From IMG/VR virus record IMGVR_UViG_3300014625_000033: a DNA stretch of 12,579 nucleotides, one strand, 5' to 3'. The position numbers and the translations under genes are program-made. The notes under the pieces are model-generated. The model was not told where the DNA came from, searched no databases, and worked only from the letters and a program-made list of their open reading frames with translations. Each line of letters opens with the position of its first letter. Positions within the stretch are counted from its first letter, which is position 1. This stretch comes from a virus. Its lineage: Duplodnaviria; Heunggongvirae; Uroviricota; Caudoviricetes. Positions 642 to 10,940 of the stretch are shown one piece after another.

Positions 642-848
642 CTTCATTTTCACTTTCTTAAATCTAACGACAGATGGCTAACATTTAAGTATTGTGAAAT
701 ATTATCAAATGTAATCATCATTGATTTACAAAAGATACATTTTGCCCCGAAAGGATTTCTGTCAGAAACATCAAAAGATGATGTTCTATACTGAGAACCA
801 TGGCAACACGGGCATCTAAAGTGAATATGGTTTGTAATATTTTCTACC

Positions 849-1061
849 TCAAAGTGCCACTACATGAACAGCTGCAGGGCCTTTAGGTCCGTTCTCAATA
901 CCAAATTCGACTTCCTGATTCTCAGTTAACGTTTTGAAATCGTTGCTCTGAATAGCTGAGAAATGCACAAACACATCTTTGCTACCATCTTTCGGCGTGA
1001 TGAAACCAAAACCTTTTTCAGGGTTAAACCATTTCACTAAACCAGTCATTTTGTTAGACAT
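849..1061 (-). CDS. cspI: Cold-shock protein CspI (CspA family, S1-like cold-shock domain), 70 aa
   Basis: Translation [70 protein letters not shown] carries the RNP1/RNP2 motifs (KGFGFI, VFVHF) and matches CspI as I recall it. SD AAGG upstream of the tandem ATGs. Confidence 0.9.
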
Positions 1062-1204
1062 CATTATTACCTTTTGAAGAAGTTAGCCCTTGGGCAGAAT
1101 GGTCCGAAAAAAAATATCAGAAAGAAAAACCAACAAGGAAATCTCAAGAGGTACAAATAATAAAATTATAACAATGACTGCTTCAGATAATTTTGTAACA
1201 AACC

Positions 1205-1241
1205 AGAACACCATTAACGCATGATTAACCAACCATAGCAA
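1205..1241 (-). promoter_or_regulatory. Candidate cspA-type promoter for cspI: -35 TTGCTA (1241..1236), 17-bp spacer, -10 GTTAAT (1218..1213), AT-rich UP-like region upstream; predicts a 5'UTR of about 145 nt
   Basis: Minus-strand read: TTGCTAtggttggttaatcatgcGTTAAT. This resembles the cspA promoter architecture (TTGCAT / CTTAAT), and the predicted leader length matches the long leaders typical of cold-shock genes. Confidence 0.4.
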
Positions 1242-2764: not shown

Positions 2765-2980
2765 TTACTCTCCTCTCGCAGCCTTACGCCTGTCTTCTTT
2801 AATCTTGAAATAAAGATTTGTCAGATACGTCAGCATGCCAAATACCAGACTACCCAATACACCTATTGCCGCCCACTGTGAGGGCGTGACTTTATCGAGC
2901 AACTGTAAAAACCAGTAGCCAGCACTGCCTGCAGAGGTGCTGTAGGCGATGCCCGTTGTTAACTTATCCATGGATTTCAT
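2765..2980 (-). CDS. essQ: Class II pinholin (phage 21 S21-like) with dual-start motif MKSM, 71/68 aa
   Basis: [71 protein letters not shown] has two TM segments and matches S21 as I recall it. ATGs at 2980 and 2971; strong SD GGAGGTGAGG. The ORF-track upstream extension is not used. Confidence 0.85.
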
Positions 2981-3070
2981 AGCCTCACCTCCGCAGATAA
3001 CGGATGGTGTACACGGTTTGGTTCGAAGAAGGAAAGAAGTTACATTAGCGTAAGGCCCGAACATCTATTC

Positions 3071-3101
3071 AAAAAGAAAAACGCCAGCAATTATTCTGGC
3101 G
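3071..3101 (-). terminator. Intrinsic terminator downstream of the AraC-family gene: hairpin CGCCAG-(8 nt)-CTGGCG followed on the minus strand by a T-rich run (TTTTTCTTTTT)
   Basis: Plus strand reads aaaaagaaaaaCGCCAGcaattattCTGGCG. It sits between the cargo gene and the holin start. Confidence 0.5.
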
Positions 3102-3170
3102 TAGCTAAAAATATCGTATAATCTTACACTTCAAAAAATAACTTTATAAAATACCATCACATCATATCTT

Positions 3171-3884
3171 CTAAGAAAATCTTGATAAATATTGGTGCGG
3201 AGGCACACCAAAATATCCTCTAAAAACACTTACAAAATATGATGCATTGTCATACCCGCATATTCCCGCCACCTTGCCGACAGTATGGTTACTGTAGATC
3301 AATAATCTTTGCGCCATCATCATTCGTTCTTCAAGAATTAATTTACTAAACGATAATCCTTCGTCTTTTAATTTTCTTTTTAACAAACTCTCGCTCATAT
3401 ATAATCTTGAAGATATATCACAAAGTCTCCATGACGCAGAGATATCCGAGTGAATAATAGCCTTAACTTTACAACCTAAGCTATTAAGACTTCCGAACAA
3501 AAAACTTTGCACTATTTTCTCTGAAGATAAGACAGCAAGACATGCAAGTGATATTTGATTTCTAACTACATCCACGGTTTTGCTATCACAATTCAAGCAT
3601 GCAACCAAGTTCTTTAACAATGAAAAATCTTCACATTCTACTATCAAGTATGACGGATAAAACCTTCTTACAGAAAAAGGTGAGAGTGTGTAGTTTTTAA
3701 AGAAATCATTAACTGTTTTCTCCTCAACATCTACGATCATTAGATGATCTGTATTTGACGAAAAAAGATCTTTTAAATTGTATTCAATGAGGACAGCATT
3801 TCCTTTTTTAAACAAAATATCTTCTTTACCAATTCGGACACCAAACGAGTTCAACACCAAAATGATAGAACATATGTATGGCAT
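3171..3884 (-). CDS. AraC/XylS-family transcriptional regulator (AppY/Rns-like short type), 237 aa from ATG at 3884; markedly AT-rich cargo gene
   Basis: C-terminal double HTH typical of AraC/XylS (…SESLLKRKLKDEGLSFSKLILEERMMMAQRLL…VGKVAGICGYDNASYFVSVFRGYFGVPPHQYLSRF). SD AGGTGGA precedes the ATG at 3884; the ORF-track start at 3893 is GTG. Base composition is far lower in GC than the flanking phage genes. Confidence 0.8.
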   Translation of the reverse strand: MPYICSIILVLNSFGVRIGKEDILFKKGNAVLIEYNLKDLFSSNTDHLMIVDVEEKTVNDFFKNYTLSPFSVRRFYPSYLIVECEDFSLLKNLVACLNCDSKTVDVVRNQISLACLAVLSSEKIVQSFLFGSLNSLGCKVKAIIHSDISASWRLCDISSRLYMSESLLKRKLKDEGLSFSKLILEERMMMAQRLLIYSNHTVGKVAGICGYDNASYFVSVFRGYFGVPPHQYLSRFS

Positions 3885-4290
3885 ATTATCCACCTGATAT
3901 CATTGGGGTTACACCAGGTAAGTATAGGTGGAAAATCAATATTCGCCAGTTCAACAATAAGGAAAATCTCATTGCATCACAACTATAAAACCATGTGTTT
4001 AACTCACAAAAAACAAATCATTAAACTAATCTGTTATATTATAATAGCTGCGTGCAATAATAATATTATATGCTCTTAATATTCACTTGAAATATCTTCA
4101 TATAAAAACAGATTGAATAAAATCTTTTGGGGCTGGTATGTTTACCAACATTAAATTGCATCTCAATGTTTTCTTTAGCGTGAACAGGATTTTTATAAAA
4201 ACTGACACTATGAGCATCATAGCGTAGTTTTTACGATTGTAAATATCCTGCATACAGGAACTCATCACTTTCAGATGATATCGCATACAG

Positions 4291-5250
4291 TTAATTCACC
4301 ATCAGTCTTAGAGCCAGTTCTTCCGGATAGGGATCGAAGTAGTTCTGTGTAAGCAAGTAATCATTAGGATACTCACCCAGATAATGCTTCAGCAGAGTCA
4401 ACGGCGCAAGAAGAGGCAATGTGCCAAAGCGATAGTTAAGTATAACCTCGCTCAACTCTTTACGCTGGCGTGTACTTAAGTAATTACTAAAATACCCCTG
4501 TATATGCATCAGCACATTCGTGTGATTTTTACGTGATGCTGGTTTTCTGAGAATCGCCATCAGATTATCACGATACACCTCAAAGTATGATTCAAGGTCC
4601 GCCCACTCGTGTATTGCAGCCACAAATGGTCCCATATCTTTATAGCCTGCCTGGCTATGCGCCAACAACTGAAGCTTATAACGACTATGAAAAGCTAATA
4701 ACTCTCTTCTTGATAATTTCTCCTTGTAAAGGTGATTGAGCTCATGCAAAGCAAAAACTCTTTCAATAAAATTCTCACGAAGCACTGGATCATGTAATCG
4801 CCCATCCTCTTCAACCGGTAGCCAGGAAAACTTTTCCATCAAAGTGCTCGTAAATAGTCCCACTCCATCTTTACGACCTCGATTACCATTTTCATCATAG
4901 ACACGCACGCGCTCCATGCCACAGCTGGGAGATTTAGCACAAACCACAAACCCCGATACATCCTTTAATTTGTCCATATAAGAACGACTAAACTCTGTCA
5001 TTCTCTCTGTCACATCCTCATTCTGGTCGTGGCTGAAACACATCCGTATATTTCCTTGCTTCGAGCGCACAAGTCGTAGAGCAGGACGCGGAACTGGCAG
5101 CCCTATAGCCATTTCCGGACATACTGGTCTGAATGTTACCCATTCCACTAATTTGTCCATTAAAAAGTCATCTCTTTTGTGACCACCATCAAAACGAACA
5201 GCAGAACCGCCCAAACAACCGCTGATCCCAATCACAGGTTTTTTTATCAT
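4291..5250 (-). CDS. DUF523 (TudS-like, putative [4Fe-4S] thio-nucleobase desulfurase fold) fused to DUF1722 (YbgA-like), 319 aa
   Basis: N-terminus MIKKPVIGISGCLGGSAVRFDGGHK with further conserved Cys in PVCPEM and VVCAKSPSCG matches the DUF523/TudS pattern; the C-terminal half resembles DUF1722/YbgA. Strong SD GGGGGAGGA before the ATG at 5250. Confidence 0.75.
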   Translation of the reverse strand: MIKKPVIGISGCLGGSAVRFDGGHKRDDFLMDKLVEWVTFRPVCPEMAIGLPVPRPALRLVRSKQGNIRMCFSHDQNEDVTERMTEFSRSYMDKLKDVSGFVVCAKSPSCGMERVRVYDENGNRGRKDGVGLFTSTLMEKFSWLPVEEDGRLHDPVLRENFIERVFALHELNHLYKEKLSRRELLAFHSRYKLQLLAHSQAGYKDMGPFVAAIHEWADLESYFEVYRDNLMAILRKPASRKNHTNVLMHIQGYFSNYLSTRQRKELSEVILNYRFGTLPLLAPLTLLKHYLGEYPNDYLLTQNYFDPYPEELALRLMVN

Positions 5251-5442
5251 TTCCTCCCCCTTGACTAATTCATTAACACATAAACTTTGTAGTGCACGGA
5301 CTAAATTGCCTTTCTGGCTTCATCACTGACAATTTTTCTGTTATTGACTATTCCTAATATAGTAGGAAAGTTCTTTAAGTGATCGGTCGTACTCATCTAT
5401 CTTTCATACTTACTCTCAACTATCAAAAGTACAGGATTTATT

Positions 5443-5967
5443 ATGAAGTTATGGCCTGTGTTGACTGGCATTGCACTCTCTTTCACTCTTATAGCATGTA
5501 AGGCCCCGACACCACCTAAAGGTGTGCAGCCGATTACAAATTTTGACGCCAACCGCTACCTCGGAAAATGGTATGAAATAGCTCGCCTCGAGAACTGGTT
5601 CGAACGTGGTCTGGAACAGGTCAGCGCTACTTATGAAAAACGGAACGACGGAGGGATTCGCGTACTTAACCGTGGATACGATCCAACGAAAAACAAATGG
5701 AGCGAGAGCGAAGGTAAAGCATACTTTACTGGAGATACTAAAACTGCAGCGTTGAAAGTTTCGTTTTTTGGCCCCTTCTATGGTGGCTATAATGTAATCA
5801 AACTGGATGATGAGTATAAGTATGCTCTTGTCAGTGGTCCGAACAGAGAATACCTATGGATTCTGGCAAGGACCCAAACTATTCCAGATAATGTAAAAGC
5901 AGACTATGTGCGTACCGCTCAAAAGTTGGGATTCAATGTCAATGAACTATTATGGGTTAAACAATAA
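5443..5967 (+). CDS. blc: Bacterial lipocalin (Blc family) outer-membrane lipoprotein, 174 aa
   Basis: Lipoprotein signal with lipobox LIAC, then lipocalin motifs (FDANRYLGKWYEIARLENWFERG; KVSFFGPFYGGYNVIKLD; YLWILARTQ), nearly collinear with E. coli Blc as I recall it. SD AGGA 7 nt upstream. Transcribed opposite to all flanking phage genes. Confidence 0.85.
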   Translation: MKLWPVLTGIALSFTLIACKAPTPPKGVQPITNFDANRYLGKWYEIARLENWFERGLEQVSATYEKRNDGGIRVLNRGYDPTKNKWSESEGKAYFTGDTKTAALKVSFFGPFYGGYNVIKLDDEYKYALVSGPNREYLWILARTQTIPDNVKADYVRTAQKLGFNVNELLWVKQ

Positions 5968-5995
5968 AATCCCCACCCGAAATGATACTTATTAG

Positions 5996-6022
5996 AAAAA
6001 AACCAGCCTTTGGGGAGGCTGG
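5996..6022 (-). terminator. Intrinsic terminator (candidate tR') downstream of the Q gene: minus strand CCAGCC-tccccaaa-GGCTGG followed by T7
   Basis: Plus strand reads aaaaaaaCCAGCCtttggggAGGCTGG. It lies about 100 nt downstream of the Q stop, where lambdoid phages place PR'/qut/tR'. It also lies just downstream of the convergent blc-like gene. Confidence 0.55.
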
Positions 6023-6122
6023 CTAAATCAGGAAACAAGCTGTTATATGATAATAACTACGTTGCGATTCCAACATTTAAAATGTTAGACTAATGAAAAT
6101 CAGACAGCAACTTTTCCTTTAA
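6023..6122 (-). promoter_or_regulatory. Candidate late promoter PR' / qut region between Q and the terminator
   Basis: Positional inference from lambdoid architecture. Minus strand contains TTGGAA-(17-18 nt)-CATATA-like elements, but I could not pick a single convincing -35/-10 pair. Confidence 0.3.
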
Positions 6123-6500
6123 TTATTTCGAACAATCAGCATCCATCTCCAATCGGAGATCCAACACCATCAGCATGCCCTCCACTACGCCCTCAGCTTT
6201 CTGGAGCATCCTGCCAACCCAACAATCAGATCGCCCATGCTTACGTGCAAGCGCCATAAAAGTCATGCCGCCGACATAATAGTCCACCAATAAATCATGT
6301 AAATCGCTGTTGTTTTTTTTCAGGCGAGCCATACATTCACAAATGATCATCGCGTCATCGTCACAGCATTGCGGACGAGATCTTACTTTTGAAGGAATTA
6401 ATCCCTTAAAACCGGCGGCAATGGACGACCAGGTCACATCTTCATGATTATTAGCCGCCCATGCCCCCCAACGCTCAAGAACCATCTGAATATCACGCAT
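6123..6500 (-). CDS. quuQ: Late-gene antiterminator Q (phage 82 / QuuD family), 125 aa from ATG at 6500
   Basis: [63 protein letters not shown]... matches the QuuD/QuuQ sequence as I recall it, including the Cys-rich zinc motif. SD GGAG precedes the ATG at 6500; the ORF-track start at 6515 is TTG. Confidence 0.85.
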
Positions 6501-6517
6501 CAACTTACTCCACAAAA

Positions 6518-7522
6518 TTAGGCCAGCACACCAATTGCCAGCGCGCGATCGATAAATCGAAAAATCAGCTCCAGTTGGGAGCCATACTTCTCTTCAAATG
6601 CCACGGTATCCGTATGCAACTCGTCGTGATGCTTTCTGCACAAAGGCAAAACAAAGAGATCATGTGCTTTGGTTCCCATTCCGCCCTGCCCGTGACCAAT
6701 CAGATGATGCGGATCGTCGGCTGGCATACCGCAGCAAGCACACGGCTGTGTCTTAACCCAGCGTGTGTATTTCTCCTTAACCCACCGGTGACGTTTAGGC
6801 AGCTTCATGAAAGATTCCGGAGACTCTGGATCAACGGTGATGCTTACCACCGTCTTTTCCTGTGATGGGTTTTGTTGCTGGTGGGCGTGAGGCAACGGTG
6901 CAAGATTTTTTGTGCGCTGTTTCAATATGCTGGTGGCGGTCTGCTCTCCCGGTACGATGTCGCTTTCGCGGTACACCGAGCAGATTTTTTCCGCTGGTAA
7001 TCCCAGCGAGCGACGTAATACCGCTTCCGGTAGCGCGTCCGCCAGCTGATTGCGGACCGCCCACCAGGATAATTCAGCCAGAGATAATTCACGCTCCTGC
7101 GTACCGCTTATTGCGTGACCGATGACGTCAATCATCCATGCTGACAGGTTTTGATGAGCAAGTTGCTCGAGTGATTCGGATGTCTGGTCACGCAGCTGGT
7201 TGTCGCAGTGCCAGCACAACACCATTGCGCCGGTACCATATCGGTGAATAACGGTTTCGCTGTGATGATAATCGCCGTGTGGCCACTGGCAGGATTTAAT
7301 ATGGCGCAACAGCCAGTCAGACAATGCACCAGCACCACCAGCAGCACGAATTACCCGTGCGTTACTGAAAAACGGCAGCAATGTTTTGTCTTCCACCAGC
7401 GGCTGGCGAACGGCAGGAACGACCCCGGACGGCAGATTACGCATGCTTTTCGGTTCCGGCTCCACCAGTACCCGGGTATTGTGGAATACCGGCATGGATT
7501 CACGGCCCGGCTTAACGACCAC
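6518..7522 (-). CDS. ydfU: YdfU-like DUF968 protein with C-terminal HNH-like Cys/His motif, 334 aa (GTG at 7522; alternative ATG at 7495)
   Basis: C-terminus [22 protein letters not shown]...[10 protein letters not shown] has CxxC...HH...C..HH spacing typical of HNH nucleases. Position between rem and Q matches K-12 Qin. Confidence 0.75.
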
Positions 7523-9613: not shown

Positions 9614-9671
9614 TTTCTGGTGACGTTTGGCGGTATCAGTTTTACTCCGTGACTGCTCTGCCGCCGTTTTT
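9614..9671 (+). ncRNA. dicF: DicF small regulatory RNA (Hfq-dependent, represses ftsZ translation)
   Basis: Sequence TTTCTGGTGACGTTTGGCGGTATCAGTTTTACTCCGTGACTGCTCTGCCGCCGTTTTT matches the E. coli DicF sequence I recall almost base for base, including the terminal hairpin and U-tract. Confidence 0.9.
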
Positions 9672-10310: not shown

Positions 10311-10940
10311 ATGAGTAAAGTCTTTATTTGCGCCGCTATTTCTGACGAACTGGCAACAAGGGAAGAAGGCGCTGTGGCTGTAGCCACAGCCATTGAAGCT
10401 GGCGACGAACGCCGTGCTCGAGCAAAATTTCACTGGCAGTTCCTGGAACATTATCCGGCTGCTCAGGACTGCGCTTATAAATTTATTGTCTGCGAGGATA
10501 AACCTGGCATACCCCGCCCTGCCCTCGATTCATGGGATGCTGAATATATGCAGGAAAACCGCTGGGATGAGGAGTCTGCTTCTTTTGTCCCGGTTATGAC
10601 CGATGAAATCCCGTTAGATGATGCACTGTTACAATTGCGGGAATTTATCGACGAAAACTCCGGTGAATTTTTTGTTCATGTCTGGGGAAATGGAGCCAAC
10701 TTCGACAACACGATTTTGCGCCGTTCATACGAACGGCAGGGGATCCCCTGCCCGTGGCGTTACTACAACGATCGCGATGTACGCACAATCGTTGAGCTGG
10801 GGAAAGCCATAGACTTCGATGCCAGAACGGCTATTCCATTCGAAGGTGAGCGCCATAATGCACTTGATGACGCCCGTTACCAGGCAAAATACGTTTCAGC
10901 TATCTGGCAAAAACTGATCCCGAGTCAGGCTGATTCTTAA
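10311..10940 (+). CDS. ydfE: YdfE-like protein, 209 aa, with C-terminal DnaQ-like 3'-5' exonuclease-type motifs; apparently intact
   Basis: Motifs VWGNGANFDNTIL (Exo II-like N..FD) and ERHNALDDARYQAKY (Exo III-like H-x-A-L-D-D-A). No canonical N-terminal D-x-E Exo I motif was seen. Position after ydfD matches K-12 ydfE, which I recall as disrupted there. Confidence 0.7.
   Translation: MSKVFICAAISDELATREEGAVAVATAIEAGDERRARAKFHWQFLEHYPAAQDCAYKFIVCEDKPGIPRPALDSWDAEYMQENRWDEESASFVPVMTDEIPLDDALLQLREFIDENSGEFFVHVWGNGANFDNTILRRSYERQGIPCPWRYYNDRDVRTIVELGKAIDFDARTAIPFEGERHNALDDARYQAKYVSAIWQKLIPSQADS

What the first reader, a model, noticed from the sequence alone, without database searches (positions are those of the whole stretch)
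3071..5995. Three-gene AT-rich cargo island (AraC regulator + TudS/YbgA-like fusion + Blc lipocalin) in the Q-to-holin slot where Stx phages carry stx
Between the candidate tR' terminator (5996-6022) and the pinholin start (2980) sits a 2.9-kb insertion that is not phage machinery. In K-12 Qin I recall cspB/cspF in this slot, and in Stx phages it holds stx. Two of the genes (DUF523-DUF1722 and AraC) are co-directional with late transcription, so Q-antiterminated RNA polymerase would express them on induction. The AraC gene also has its own AT-rich upstream region (3885-4290) and terminator, which suggests lysogen-state expression as well. I know of no described system combining a thio-nucleobase desulfurase-like Fe-S protein, an AraC regulator and a lipocalin, so it is a candidate lysogenic-conversion or defence/counter-defence module of unknown function.
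Basis: partly seen in the sequence, partly recalled or inferred. Interest (0 to 1): 0.75.

Follow-up and report, generated by a model that had tools for sequence, protein, structure and literature searches.

The report
Prophage cargo: tRNA-eraser, lipocalin, AraC regulator
Between the late-gene switch (Q) and the lysis genes of this E. coli prophage sit three passenger genes: an enzyme that strips a light-sensitive sulfur mark from tRNA (RudS), a Blc-type outer-membrane lipocalin and an AraC-type regulator. About a fifth of complete E. coli genomes carry this cassette; its parts are each already known, but its joint role, probably light and stress tolerance, has never been tested.

Summary
Window 3001-6140 is a low-GC cargo block between a quuD-type Q gene with a terminator hairpin and a P21-type holin, in a Qin-type cryptic prophage. 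It is not an unknown system.

- **Middle gene:** a RudS protein (TudS+DUF1722), 92% identical to RudS_vir of phage 1H12. That enzyme was shown in 2024 to remove 4-thiouridine (s4U) from E. coli tRNA.
- **Lipocalin:** passes NCBI's Blc model. It was already listed in 2020 as a common lambda moron.
- **AraC-type gene:** a full-length relative of YdeO, AppY and the O157 prophage regulators that are probably PsrA/PsrB (29-41% identity). Those paralogues also sit right after Q.

New here: blc and rudS are the two ends of an enterobacterial light/photo-oxidative-stress divergon controlled by an MlrA-type MerR regulator. In the phage copy, that regulator and the intervening operon are absent.

The order Q-blc-rudS-araC-holin holds in 20 of 21 viral contigs. 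It recurs in three prophage backgrounds and in 989-1151 of 5426 E. coli genomes. All three genes are under purifying selection. A Citrobacter-type phage lineage captured a RudS gene independently, next to dinI.

Best reading: a composite lysogenic-conversion cassette (near-UV/photo-stress module plus a Psr-like regulator). No evidence supports a defence role. The physiological role is inferred, not shown.

The parts
6123..6500 (-). Q antiterminator, quuD type (125 aa from the RefSeq-style start; the mechanical ORF runs to 6515)
   Evidence: Pfam PF06530, E = 8e-51. 84% nucleotide identity to DLP12 quuD up to 6141. It always accompanies the cassette.
6025..6077 (-). Late-leader segment just upstream of the tR' hairpin; it has a 53-nt copy upstream of araC
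   Evidence: Local alignment score 50, against shuffles averaging 27.5 +/- 4.3 with a maximum of 46. It contains ATATAACAG, which is also in the DLP12 quuD leader. The pR' promoter itself was not located.
5994..6024 (-). Candidate tR': 9-bp GC-rich hairpin followed by U7
   Evidence: Terminator scan. RNA fold -14.9 kcal/mol, z = -4.2. Conserved in phages 1H12 and IdasGreatGrand.
5443..5967 (+). Blc-type outer-membrane lipocalin (174 aa), convergent with late transcription; lipobox L-I-A-C at residues 16-19
   Evidence: Pfam Lipocalin_2, E = 7.5e-43. NCBIfam Blc subfamily score 312.6, above the 267 cutoff. Matches PDB Blc 3mbt at E = 8e-67. 75-80% identical to chromosomal Blc-like proteins of Cedecea, Serratia and Pantoea.
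5251..5442 (.). Divergent blc<->rudS intergenic region. It holds a conserved box TCCTACTATATT (5356-5367) and a weak inverted repeat AAATTG-N21-CAATTT (5303-5335)
   Evidence: The box lies about 76 nt from the lipocalin ATG, the same distance as in the chromosomal lipocalin-merR intergenic regions of Serratia, Klebsiella, Cedecea and a metagenome contig (alignment A1). Promoter function is inferred, not shown.
4291..5250 (-). rudS: TudS(DUF523)-DUF1722 fusion (319 aa), a tRNA 4-thiouridine desulfidase; strong Shine-Dalgarno sequence GGGGGAGG
   Evidence: Pfam PF04463 + PF08349. 92% identical to RudS_vir, phage 1H12 gp66, which was tested in PMC11417400. Cys12, Cys44 and Cys110 are present, along with Glu46, Arg55, Ser107, Ser109, Ser239 and Arg240.
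4216..4243 (-). Candidate araC promoter: TTTACA, 16 nt, TATGAT
   Evidence: 10 of 12 consensus matches. Invariant in four alleles whose flanks have diverged (alignment A3). Not tested experimentally.
4015..4067 (-). Second copy of the 53-nt late-leader segment, inside the AT-rich araC leader
   Evidence: Present in the window, IdasGreatGrand and B1W1; absent from 1H12.
3171..3884 (-). AraC/XylS-family regulator (237 aa) of the YdeO/AppY/Psr-like subgroup
   Evidence: Pfam HTH_18 and HTH_AraC. Full-length but sub-threshold match to the NCBIfam YdeO model, 112 against a cutoff of 348 bits. 37-41% identical to the O157 prophage regulator WP_000301797, and 29-32% to YdeO and AppY. An AF2 model (pLDDT 74) matches CsvR, Rns and ToxT. 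phrog_1450.
3072..3102 (-). Intrinsic terminator after araC, just upstream of the holin
   Evidence: Terminator scan. RNA fold -11.3 kcal/mol, z = -3.2.
2765..2980 (-). Holin (essD / P21 S type), first gene of the lysis cassette and the downstream border of the slot
   Evidence: Pfam PF04971. Homology to DLP12 essD resumes at 3000, and to K-12 essQ at 3009.

Best explanation
This is a composite lysogenic-conversion ('moron') cassette built from two modules. It travels with a quuD-type Q gene and occupies the Q-to-holin slot.

**Module A (blc <-> rudS)**
- It is a regulator-less fragment of an enterobacterial light/photo-oxidative-stress divergon. In Serratia, Klebsiella, Cedecea and Citrobacter, the lipocalin and RudS are the two ends of a unit controlled by an MlrA-type MerR regulator. 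That unit usually includes a lipid-modification operon (SDR, amine oxidase, DUF1365, CFA-synthase-like).
- The phage copy keeps the lipocalin-side promoter region but lacks the regulator and the operon.
- RudS is a [4Fe-4S] desulfidase that converts s4U8 in tRNA back to U.
- Inferred role: by lowering s4U it reduces UVA-induced s4U8-C13 cross-linking. That should reduce the growth delay and stringent arrest that near-UV light causes, so a sun-exposed lysogen, or a UV-induced phage, keeps translating.
- The Blc-type lipoprotein plausibly handles damaged or lyso-phospholipids in the outer membrane.

**Module B (araC)**
- It is a YdeO/AppY/Psr-like regulator with its own promoter, a long AT-rich leader and a terminator.
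- It most likely plugs into host stress regulons, as AppY, PatE and PsrB do with the GAD acid-resistance genes.
- It may additionally have replaced the missing MerR as controller of module A.

**Expression**
In a lysogen, expression would come from the genes' own promoters. On induction, Q-modified polymerase reading through tR' would boost rudS and araC, and would run antisense across blc.

**Shown versus inferred**
- Shown: gene identities, synteny, ancestry, linkage and purifying selection.
- Taken from the literature: the RudS enzymatic activity.
- Inferred: promoters, regulation and the physiological benefit.
For: **Identity**
- RudS domains and ligand residues are present, with 92% identity to the tested RudS_vir.
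- Overexpressing RudS genes, RudS_vir included, lowers s4U in E. coli tRNA. RudS_KT diminishes the UVA growth delay (PMC11417400).
- The lipocalin exceeds the NCBIfam Blc cutoff and has a lipobox.

**Ancestry**
- Chromosomal RudS (70-75% identical) and Blc-like proteins (75-80%) occur in Enterobacterales.
- In Serratia (L008, L009) and a JGI contig (L013) the order is lipocalin <- -> MlrA-type MerR -> (transthyretin-like gene) -> RudS.
- In Cedecea and Klebsiella (L010-L012) it is lipocalin <- -> MerR -> SnoaL2-SDR-amine oxidase-DUF1365-CMAS.
- In Citrobacter (L005-L007) the same operon ends in RudS.
- No MerR homologue is found in any of 42 viral loci.
- A conserved box sits at the same distance from the lipocalin ATG in the phage and in the chromosomes.

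**Linkage**
- The blc-rudS pair is in 1151 of 5426 complete E. coli genomes. The araC region is in 974, and the whole Q-to-holin block is in 989.
- In IMG/VR, Blc is present in 32 of 33 loci with room for it and AraC in 25 of 26. The full gene order holds in 20 of 21. The one exception carries IS1 and IS66 elements in place of araC.
- The cassette occurs in three prophage backgrounds and in plaque-forming phages.

**Selection**
dN/dS is 0.06-0.25 for all three genes.

**Two modules**
- GC content and synonymous divergence differ. For window versus 1H12, dS is 0.18 for blc, 0.30 for rudS and 0.57 for araC.
- AraC paralogues sit alone right after Q in other prophages.
- RudS sits alone, next to a DinI homologue, in an independent Citrobacter-type phage lineage.
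- A 53-nt late-leader repeat upstream of araC looks like a junction scar.
- Precedent for prophage AraC regulators acting on host GAD genes.
Against: - There are no expression or phenotype data for this cassette.
- Promoter calls are weak. The scan finds no more sites than shuffled sequence does, and pR' was not located.
- The UVA phenotype was shown only for overexpressed Pseudomonas RudS_KT. RudS_vir had lower tRNA desulfidation than its protein level would suggest. It also gave the best growth on 4-thiouracil of all RudS proteins tested.
- The cassette is very common in lambda phages from infant guts, a dark habitat. This argues against a purely sunlight-related benefit.
- Loss of s4U can destabilise some tRNAs, so constitutive erasure may carry a cost.
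- IS insertions, a truncated rudS and a frameshifted araC occur in several genomes.
- Tight linkage over 3 kb needs no functional coupling.
- The identification of the O157 paralogue as PsrA/PsrB rests on context (two copies per genome, a Pch/PerC gene nearby, position near 1.9 Mb). It was not confirmed by locus tag.
Confidence: 0.5

Rival explanations
1. These are three unrelated morons that merely share a permissive slot. blc, rudS and araC each do something separate, or nothing, for the host. They stay together only because they lie within 3 kb between two recombination anchors, Q and the holin.
For: Composition and synonymous divergence differ between the genes. AraC paralogues occur in Q-S slots without rudS or blc. 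RudS occurs in a phage without blc or araC. The same Q type carries nmpC instead in DLP12. The cassette is often decayed by IS elements or frameshifts.
Against: blc and rudS are partners of one regulated unit in several chromosomal lineages, so at least that pair was co-inherited as a functional neighbourhood. All three genes are under purifying selection across alleles with dS up to 0.57. The gene order is invariant in 20 of 21 viral contigs and across three prophage backgrounds.
Confidence: 0.25
2. The phage RudS works mainly in thionucleotide salvage or detoxification, converting 4-thio-UMP or 4-thiouracil released by RNA turnover into UMP or uracil. That would feed nucleotide pools during lytic growth rather than edit intact tRNA.
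For: RudS_vir gave the shortest lag on 4-thiouracil of all RudS proteins tested. Its tRNA desulfidation was low for its protein level. Stand-alone TudS enzymes do recycle 4-thio-UMP (PMC10611767, listed).
Against: RudS_vir still lowered tRNA s4U in vivo. The DUF1722 tRNA-binding domain is retained under purifying selection (dN/dS 0.11-0.22), including Ser239 and Arg240. s4U is a very small nucleotide pool.
Confidence: 0.1
3. This is a defence or counter-defence module. Erasing s4U, or the AraC regulator, protects the lysogen from superinfecting phages or protects the phage from tRNA-targeting host immunity.
For: Q-S slots and other prophage hot spots often carry defence genes (general knowledge). 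RudS acts on tRNA, which is a frequent target in phage-host conflict.
Against: None of the three proteins, nor the small spacer ORF, hits PADLOC. The closest relatives are housekeeping stress genes in chromosomal light-response clusters, not in defence islands. I know of no defence system that depends on s4U (own knowledge).
Confidence: 0.05
4. AraC is the cassette's dedicated regulator. It replaced the lost MlrA-type MerR and switches blc and rudS on in response to a new cue, for example fatty acids or acid, as in Rns/ToxT/GadX-type proteins.
For: The MerR gene is missing while an AraC gene is almost always present. The AraC model resembles the fatty-acid-binding regulators Rns, CsvR and ToxT. 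Blc binds fatty acids and lysophospholipids (own knowledge of PDB 2ACO; PDB hit).
Against: araC lies downstream of rudS, not beside the divergent promoters. No motif shared between the two intergenic regions stood out. The paralogues that are probably Psr, and AppY, act on host genes. araC has roughly twice the synonymous divergence of rudS, which suggests separate histories. The model has only medium confidence (pLDDT 74, TM about 0.45).
Confidence: 0.2

Closest known systems
RudS (TudS-DUF1722) tRNA 4-thiouridine desulfidases, specifically RudS_vir = gp66 of Escherichia phage 1H12 (Jamontas et al., NAR 2024, PMC11417400)
   Same: Same two-domain architecture. Same Cys12/Cys44/Cys110 ligands and the same catalytic Glu, Ser and Arg residues. 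92% identity to the tested phage enzyme. Same position in the phage genome.
   Different: The paper treats the gene in isolation. It does not describe the Q-S slot, the lipocalin and AraC neighbours, or a role in phage biology. It also states that E. coli lacks RudS, whereas 1151 of 5426 complete genomes carry this prophage copy.
MlrA/LitR-type MerR-controlled light/photo-oxidative-stress clusters of Proteobacteria. Examples: the Pseudomonas LitR-PhrB-RudS operon, Salmonella STM1389 (ORF319) with its MerR neighbour, and V. cholerae MerR-phr.
   Same: The lipocalin and RudS are divergently arranged partners, as in Serratia, Klebsiella and Cedecea. A short intergenic box is conserved.
   Different: The phage copy has lost the MerR regulator and the SDR/amine-oxidase/DUF1365/CMAS operon. 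Light control is therefore probably gone, and late-operon read-through has been added.
E. coli Blc (outer-membrane lipocalin, PDB 1QWD/2ACO/3MBT) and the 'blc' moron of infant-gut lambda phages (Mathieu et al. 2020, PMC6969025)
   Same: Blc-subfamily score above cutoff, lipobox present, and strong alignment to the Blc crystal structures (PDB 3mbt, E = 8e-67). It is the same gene family that was counted in more than 50% of 19 lambda phages.
   Different: It is closer to the Blc-like proteins of the light-stress clusters in other genera (75-80%) than the host's own Blc appears to be; the Blc alignment shows more substitutions. It is convergent with late transcription. Its ligand and role in the phage context are unknown.
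Prophage-borne AraC/XylS regulators of the YdeO/GadX group: AppY (DLP12), PatE, PsrA and PsrB (O157 prophages)
   Same: Similar length, full-length alignability and the same N-terminal M..(I/V)CS(I/V) start. The gene is AT-rich and carried by a prophage. The paralogues that are probably Psr lie in the same Q-to-holin slot.
   Different: Identity is only 29-41%, and it fails the YdeO and GadX equivalog cutoffs. It sits at the holin end of the slot rather than directly after Q. Its targets are untested.
Other Q-S slot cargo: stx in Stx phages, nmpC in DLP12, cspB/cspF in K-12 Qin, tRNA genes in O157 prophages
   Same: Same slot and the same logic: the gene has its own promoter and also gains Q-dependent read-through on induction. 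The swap boundaries lie at the end of Q and just upstream of the holin.
   Different: The cargo here is a stress and translation-maintenance set rather than a toxin, a porin or cold-shock proteins.

Membership tests
RudS (TudS-DUF1722 tRNA s4U desulfidase) | N-terminal TudS/DUF523 domain fused to a C-terminal DUF1722 domain | tested here: met
   PF04463 covers residues 7-149 (E = 5.8e-40) and PF08349 covers residues 192-309 (E = 9.4e-40).
RudS (TudS-DUF1722 tRNA s4U desulfidase) | Three Cys ligands of the [4Fe-4S] cluster, plus catalytic Glu, Ser and Arg residues and the DUF1722 Ser-Arg tRNA-contact pair | tested here: met
   Cys12, Cys44 and Cys110 are the positions listed for RudS_vir and RudS_ST in Table 1 of PMC11417400. 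Glu46, Arg55, Ser107, Ser109, Ser239 and Arg240 are present in the sequence. They correspond to RudS_KT Glu51, Arg60, Ser111, Ser113, Ser243 and Arg244. Correspondence was judged by motif and offset; no alignment to RudS_KT was made.
RudS (TudS-DUF1722 tRNA s4U desulfidase) | Removes s4U from tRNA | not testable with these tools
   The 92%-identical RudS_vir lowered s4U in E. coli tRNA when overexpressed.
Blc (bacterial outer-membrane lipocalin) | Lipocalin_2 fold and a score above the curated Blc subfamily cutoff | tested here: met
   PF08212, E = 7.5e-43. NF007786 scores 312.6 against a cutoff of 267. PDB 3mbt matches at E = 8e-67.
Blc (bacterial outer-membrane lipocalin) | Lipoprotein signal peptide with a lipobox Cys and no inner-membrane retention signal | tested here: met
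   The sequence reads MKLWPVLTGIALSFTLIAC-K. The lipobox is LIAC and the +2 residue is Lys. This was read directly from the sequence; no signal-peptide predictor was run.
YdeO / GadX equivalogs (AraC/XylS acid-resistance regulators) | Score above the curated equivalog cutoff | tested here: not met
   YdeO model: 112.3 bits against a cutoff of 348. GadX model: 89.9 against 500. Identity to K-12 YdeO is 29% and to AppY 30%. It is a homologue, not an orthologue.
Psr/PatE-type prophage AraC regulators | Prophage-borne AraC-type regulator with a C-terminal dual HTH, alignable over its full length to PsrA/PsrB | tested here: inconclusive
   The HTH domains are present. Identity to O157 WP_000301797 is 37-41% over 97-99% of the length. 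That protein has two copies per O157 genome, sits after Q and has a PerC/Pch gene nearby. It could not be tied to locus tags Z1789 or Z2104.
Psr/PatE-type prophage AraC regulators | Activates gadE/hdeA and raises acid resistance | not testable with these tools
   Known only for PatE, PsrB and AppY.
Lambdoid Q-S slot moron | Lies between the Q antiterminator with its terminator and the holin, and is dispensable for the phage | tested here: met
   Position. Related Q-S slots carry other cargo instead: nmpC in DLP12, which has the same Q and holin types, and cspB/cspF in K-12 Qin, which shares the holin type but has a different Q. Plaque-forming phages carry the cassette.
Lambdoid Q-S slot moron | Transcribed from pR' by Q-modified polymerase | tested here: inconclusive
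   Orientation and the terminator fit. However, no pR' promoter was identified and no transcript data exist.
MerR(MlrA/LitR-type)-controlled light-stress divergon | An adjacent MerR-family regulator gene | tested here: not met
   tblastn with the Serratia MerR found nothing in 42 viral loci, and the window has no MerR-type ORF. The cassette is a derivative of such a divergon, not a member.
Known anti-phage defence systems | Match to a PADLOC model | tested here: not met
   None of the four proteins scanned gave a hit at E <= 0.01.

The most novel reading that the evidence does not exclude
Temperate enterobacterial phages use a captured tRNA-modification eraser as 'sunlight-proofing'. By keeping host tRNA low in s4U8, RudS would uncouple the near-UV growth delay and stringent arrest from DNA-damage (SOS) signalling. 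A lysogen hit by sunlight could then still induce the prophage and translate a full late-protein burst. Supporting observations: two phage lineages acquired rudS independently (one in the Q-S slot, one beside dinI), and the light-sensing repressor is absent from the phage copy, which is what constitutive expression would need.
Probability: 0.25. Interest if true: 0.7.

Novelty: new member of a known kind. Interest (0 to 1): 0.4.

Why it matters
About one in five complete E. coli genomes carries a prophage copy of a tRNA s4U eraser that the species is said to lack. s4U levels, UVA sensitivity and stringent-response behaviour may therefore differ between strains for a reason nobody has looked at.

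The cassette gives the first natural setting in which to test what RudS is for, using isogenic lysogens and inducible, plaque-forming phages such as 1H12. It also offers a clean example of a phage taking the output genes of a host stress regulon while leaving the sensor behind.

In addition, it adds a fourth lineage to the prophage AraC regulators (AppY, PatE, Psr) that rewire host stress responses.

None of this is a new kind of system. The value lies in annotation and in a directly testable hypothesis.

Tried and rejected
- **Defence role.** PADLOC gave no hits.
- **Small ORF in the araC leader (4098-4286, 62 aa).** It has no family hits. An indel shifts its frame in IdasGreatGrand, and the region is not conserved in 1H12. 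I treat it as non-coding.
- **A hidden lipocalin in the Citrobacter operon.** The unannotated 175-aa gene upstream of DUF3833 is not a lipocalin.
- **DNA-level homology of the phage intergenic region to the chromosomal loci.** blastn finds homology only within the coding regions, at about 70%. Only a 12-nt box aligns.
- **Locating PsrA in EDL933.** I fetched the CP-933N region (NZ_CP008957 1.625-1.672 Mb). tblastn found no AraC gene there. The Psr assignment therefore rests on context in other O157 genomes.
- **The primary PatE, PsrB and 1986 near-UV/SOS papers.** They are not held in the library.
- **Shared AraC-type operator motifs between the two intergenic regions.** Only short, chance-level repeats turned up, apart from the 53-nt leader repeat.
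- **Rfam and tRNA scans of the slot.** Nothing was found inside 3000-6140.
- **A bidirectional role of the tR' hairpin for blc.** There is no U-run on the + strand and z is only -0.8.
- **Literature search for the RefSeq protein accessions and for RudS together with prophage.** No hits.

Full report
**1.

The window is a Qin-type cryptic lambdoid prophage of E. coli. An identical 3.3-kb stretch lies in the ydfJ-rspB prophage of strain H2. Late genes run on the - strand, in this order:
- ydfU (DUF968)
- a quuD-type Q gene (PF06530, 6123-6500)
- a hairpin followed by U7 at 6024-5994
- a lipocalin gene on the opposite strand (5443-5967)
- a DUF523+DUF1722 gene (5250-4291)
- a roughly 400-bp spacer of 29-31% GC
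- an AraC-type gene (3884-3171)
- a second terminator (3102-3072)
- a P21-type holin, then ydfR, lysozyme and Rz

Both terminators fold far better than shuffled sequence: -14.9 kcal/mol (z = -4.2) and -11.3 kcal/mol (z = -3.2). In K-12 Qin the same slot holds cspB, cspF, ynfU and ynfS. In DLP12, which has the same Q type, it holds nmpC.

Homology to DLP12 stops at 6141 and resumes at 3000. Homology to K-12 Qin stops at 6518 and resumes at 3009. I could not locate pR'. The promoter scan finds no more sites than shuffled sequence gives.

**2. The middle gene is a RudS enzyme**

Jamontas et al. (NAR 2024, PMC11417400) showed that TudS-DUF1722 fusions, which they named RudS, are [4Fe-4S] desulfidases. 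They convert 4-thiouridine at position 8 of tRNA back to uridine. Overexpression lowers s4U in E. coli tRNA 4.7- to 26-fold, and RudS_KT diminishes the growth delay caused by UVA.

One of their six enzymes, RudS_vir, is gp66 of Escherichia phage 1H12. The window protein is 92% identical to it. It has the same Cys12, Cys44 and Cys110 ligands. It also has Glu46, Arg55, Ser107, Ser109, Ser239 and Arg240. The biochemical function is therefore known by close orthology.

The paper does not discuss the phage context. It states that E. coli lacks RudS, yet megablast finds this rudS-blc pair in 1151 of 5426 complete E. coli genomes.

**3. The lipocalin is a Blc-family lipoprotein**

It scores 312.6 against the NCBIfam Blc subfamily cutoff of 267. 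It aligns to the Blc crystal structures at E = 8e-67 and carries an LIAC lipobox. Mathieu et al. (2020, PMC6969025) had already listed 'blc, a bacterial lipocalin' as a moron in more than half of 19 lambda phages from infant guts. 1H12 is a close relative of the Lambda_* phage records in the collection, which share the same rudS-blc block at 91% nucleotide identity.

**4. The AraC-type gene belongs to the YdeO/AppY/Psr group**

It aligns end-to-end with the NCBIfam YdeO model but scores far below the cutoff (112 against 348 bits). It is 29-32% identical to K-12 YdeO and AppY. It is 37-41% identical to a 237-aa regulator of O157:H7 prophages, WP_000301797.

That O157 protein is present twice per genome, sits just after the antiterminator and has a PerC/Pch gene nearby. 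This fits the published description of PsrA and PsrB. I could not tie it to the locus tags, and a first guess at the EDL933 location was wrong.

Two further paralogues (P0015, P0017) also lie between Q and the holin of other prophages, without rudS or blc. A medium-confidence AF2 model (pLDDT 74) best matches the full-length regulators CsvR, Rns and ToxT. Its C-terminal half matches the GadX DNA-binding domain.

AppY, PatE and PsrB all activate the GAD acid-resistance genes. That is the best available guess for this protein's targets, but it is only a guess.

**5. Where blc and rudS came from**

Chromosomal RudS proteins of Citrobacter, Serratia, Klebsiella, Enterobacter and Salmonella are 70-75% identical to the phage protein. 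Blc-like proteins of Cedecea, Serratia, Pantoea and Klebsiella are 75-80% identical. Their neighbourhoods tell the story:
- In Serratia rubidaea and in a metagenome contig, the order is lipocalin (leftward), then an MlrA-type MerR regulator (rightward), then an optional transthyretin-like gene, then RudS.
- In Cedecea and Klebsiella the lipocalin faces the same MerR gene, followed by SnoaL2, SDR, amine oxidase, DUF1365 and a CFA-synthase-like gene.
- In Citrobacter braakii that same operon continues through DUF2878 and DUF3833 and ends with RudS.

The lipocalin and RudS are thus the two ends of one MerR-controlled divergon. It belongs to the light/photo-oxidative-stress type described for LitR, MerR and ChrR regulons.

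The phage cassette has the two ends joined by only 192 bp, and no MerR gene occurs in any of 42 viral loci. A 12-nt box (TCCTACTATATT, 5356-5367) lies about 76 nt from the lipocalin start codon in both the phage and the chromosomes. Otherwise, DNA similarity is confined to the coding regions.

I infer that the phage captured, or was reduced to, the output genes without the sensor. If the MerR acts as a dark-state repressor, as class II LitR proteins do, that loss would make expression constitutive. This step is inference.

**6. Linkage, spread and selection**

The whole Q-to-holin block is found at 80% coverage or more in 989 of 5426 genomes. The araC region is found in 974.

| IMG/VR check (loci with enough flanking DNA) | Result |
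|---|---|
| Blc present | 32 of 33 |
| AraC present | 25 of 26 (23 near full length) |
| Order Q, blc, rudS, araC, holin | 20 of 21 |

The single exception has IS1 and IS66 elements where araC should be.

The cassette occurs in at least three prophage backgrounds:
- the Qin site
- a decayed prophage next to ybhB
- an intact lambda-like prophage

It also occurs in 12 deposited plaque-forming phages.

Between allelic lineages all three genes show purifying selection: dN/dS is 0.11-0.22 for rudS, 0.06-0.23 for blc and 0.20-0.25 for araC. Synonymous divergence differs for the window-1H12 pair: 0.18 for blc, 0.30 for rudS and 0.57 for araC. Together with the GC contrast, this points to two modules with different histories.

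A 53-nt piece of the late leader (6077-6025, just before the tR' hairpin) is repeated upstream of araC (4067-4015). The alignment scores 50, against shuffles of 27.5 +/- 4.3 with a maximum of 46. I read it as a possible scar from a time when araC lay directly behind pR', as its paralogues still do. The repeat is absent from 1H12.

**7. An independent capture**

Six viral contigs (L059-L064) are related to Citrobacter phage Chris1. They carry a different RudS, 72% identical to the window protein and 82% identical to the C. braakii chromosomal enzyme, with no blc and no araC nearby. It sits in the nin region between replication genes and a DinI homologue, upstream of RusA, DUF968 and Q.

Two separate acquisitions by temperate enterobacterial phages, one of them beside an SOS modulator, suggest that RudS itself is the selected cargo. 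They also fit a link to DNA-damage or UV situations.

**8. The most likely mechanism**

In the lysogen, blc and rudS would be transcribed from the retained divergent promoter region. araC would be transcribed from its own promoter. TTTACA-16 nt-TATGAT at 4243-4216 is invariant across alleles whose flanks have diverged. It would give a roughly 330-nt AT-rich leader, which is probably bound by H-NS.

On induction, Q-modified polymerase would read through 6024-5994. It would cross blc antisense and raise rudS and araC expression before reaching the lysis genes. RudS would lower s4U8 in tRNA and so reduce UVA-induced s4U8-C13 cross-links and the translation arrest that follows.

[quoted passage not shown] A phage induced by sunlight would therefore gain from removing s4U.

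Blc would deal with damaged outer-membrane lipids. AraC would tune host stress regulons.

Confidence differs by step:
- high for gene identities and ancestry
- moderate for the two-module view
- low to moderate (about 0.3-0.4) for the UV physiology

**9. Caveats**
- RudS_vir was the weakest tRNA eraser relative to its protein level. It was also the best at supporting growth on 4-thiouracil, so a salvage role cannot be excluded.
- The cassette is abundant in phages from the infant gut, which is dark.
- Losing s4U can cost tRNA stability.
- Decay by IS elements, truncation and frameshift is common. Examples are the IS3-split rudS in strain B-DolR, the truncated rudS in BL21 and the frameshifted araC in B1W1.
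- Tight linkage over 3 kb does not prove functional coupling.
- No defence-system model matches any of the proteins.

**10. Verdict**

The cassette is a new, widespread member of the known class of Q-S slot morons, built from parts that are each already described. What this analysis adds:
- the cassette as a unit
- its origin as a sensor-less fragment of a light-stress divergon
- the Psr-like identity of the regulator
- the independent RudS capture in a second phage lineage
- the prevalence of RudS in E. coli

Interest is moderate. The finding supplies a testable role for a newly discovered tRNA eraser rather than a new kind of system.

Noticed in passing
L059-L064 (for example L063:5001-5960, with the DinI homologue at L063:6157-6423): A second temperate-phage lineage, related to Citrobacter phage Chris1, carries its own RudS. 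It is 72% identical to the window protein and 82% identical to the C. braakii chromosomal RudS. It lies in the nin region next to a DinI homologue, with no lipocalin or AraC. This is an independent capture.
   Followed up: partly
L018:7001-7714, L020:7001-7711, L022:6001-6714, L024:9001-9714: AraC-type paralogues (37-41% identical) sit directly downstream of Q in late regions that resemble those of Stx phages. They lie before the tRNA-Ile and tRNA-Arg genes, TerB and the nanS-p-like esterase, which is where stx lies in Stx phages. The O157 copies are probably PsrA/PsrB, but this was not verified by locus tag.
   Followed up: partly
window 6025-6077 and 4015-4067: A 53-nt stretch of the late leader, just upstream of the tR' hairpin, is repeated in the araC leader. 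It contains ATATAACAG, which is also found after DLP12 quuD. It is missing from phage 1H12. It may be a recombination scar or a Q/pause-related element.
   Followed up: partly
E. coli genome hits H44 (B-DolR), H66 (BL21); also H1, H11, H20-H22, H38, H47: The cassette is often hit by insertion sequences (IS1, IS3, ISVsa5). rudS is split by IS3 in strain B-DolR. In strain BL21 only its first ~49 codons, together with blc, remain. BL21(DE3), a BL21 derivative, was the expression host in the RudS study, which also states that E. coli has no RudS. The prophage copy is in 1151 of 5426 complete genomes.
   Followed up: no
L009:5566-6000 (Serratia, upstream of rudS); window 5303-5335: Serratia has an inverted repeat AAAATTGTACA-N12-TGTGTAATTTT upstream of rudS. 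From memory, this resembles the E. coli MlrA box. The phage intergenic region has a weaker AAATTG-N21-CAATTT, which could easily arise by chance. Host MlrA or BluR might still touch the phage promoter.
   Followed up: no
window 803-1208 (- strand): A cspA-type thermoregulator 5' UTR (Rfam RF01766, 111 bits) precedes the cspI-like cold-shock gene at 849-1064.
   Followed up: no
window 9615-9666 (+ strand): The DicF small RNA (Rfam RF00039, 72.5 bits) lies in the dicA/dicC immunity arm of the prophage.
   Followed up: no
window 10311-10940: The exonuclease-like ORF is only 209 aa, whereas strain H2's Qin prophage has a 2472-nt exonuclease gene at the matching place. The left arm of this prophage therefore differs from, or is more decayed than, the one in H2.
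   Followed up: no
L005-L007 (Citrobacter), L010-L012 (Cedecea, Klebsiella): Some Enterobacterales carry a MerR-controlled operon of SnoaL2, SDR, amine oxidase, DUF1365, a CFA-synthase-like gene, DUF2878, an unannotated gene, DUF3833 and RudS. It resembles the photo-oxidative-stress/furan-fatty-acid gene sets of other Proteobacteria. No homologue of the MerR regulator turned up in any of the E. coli prophage loci examined.
   Followed up: partly
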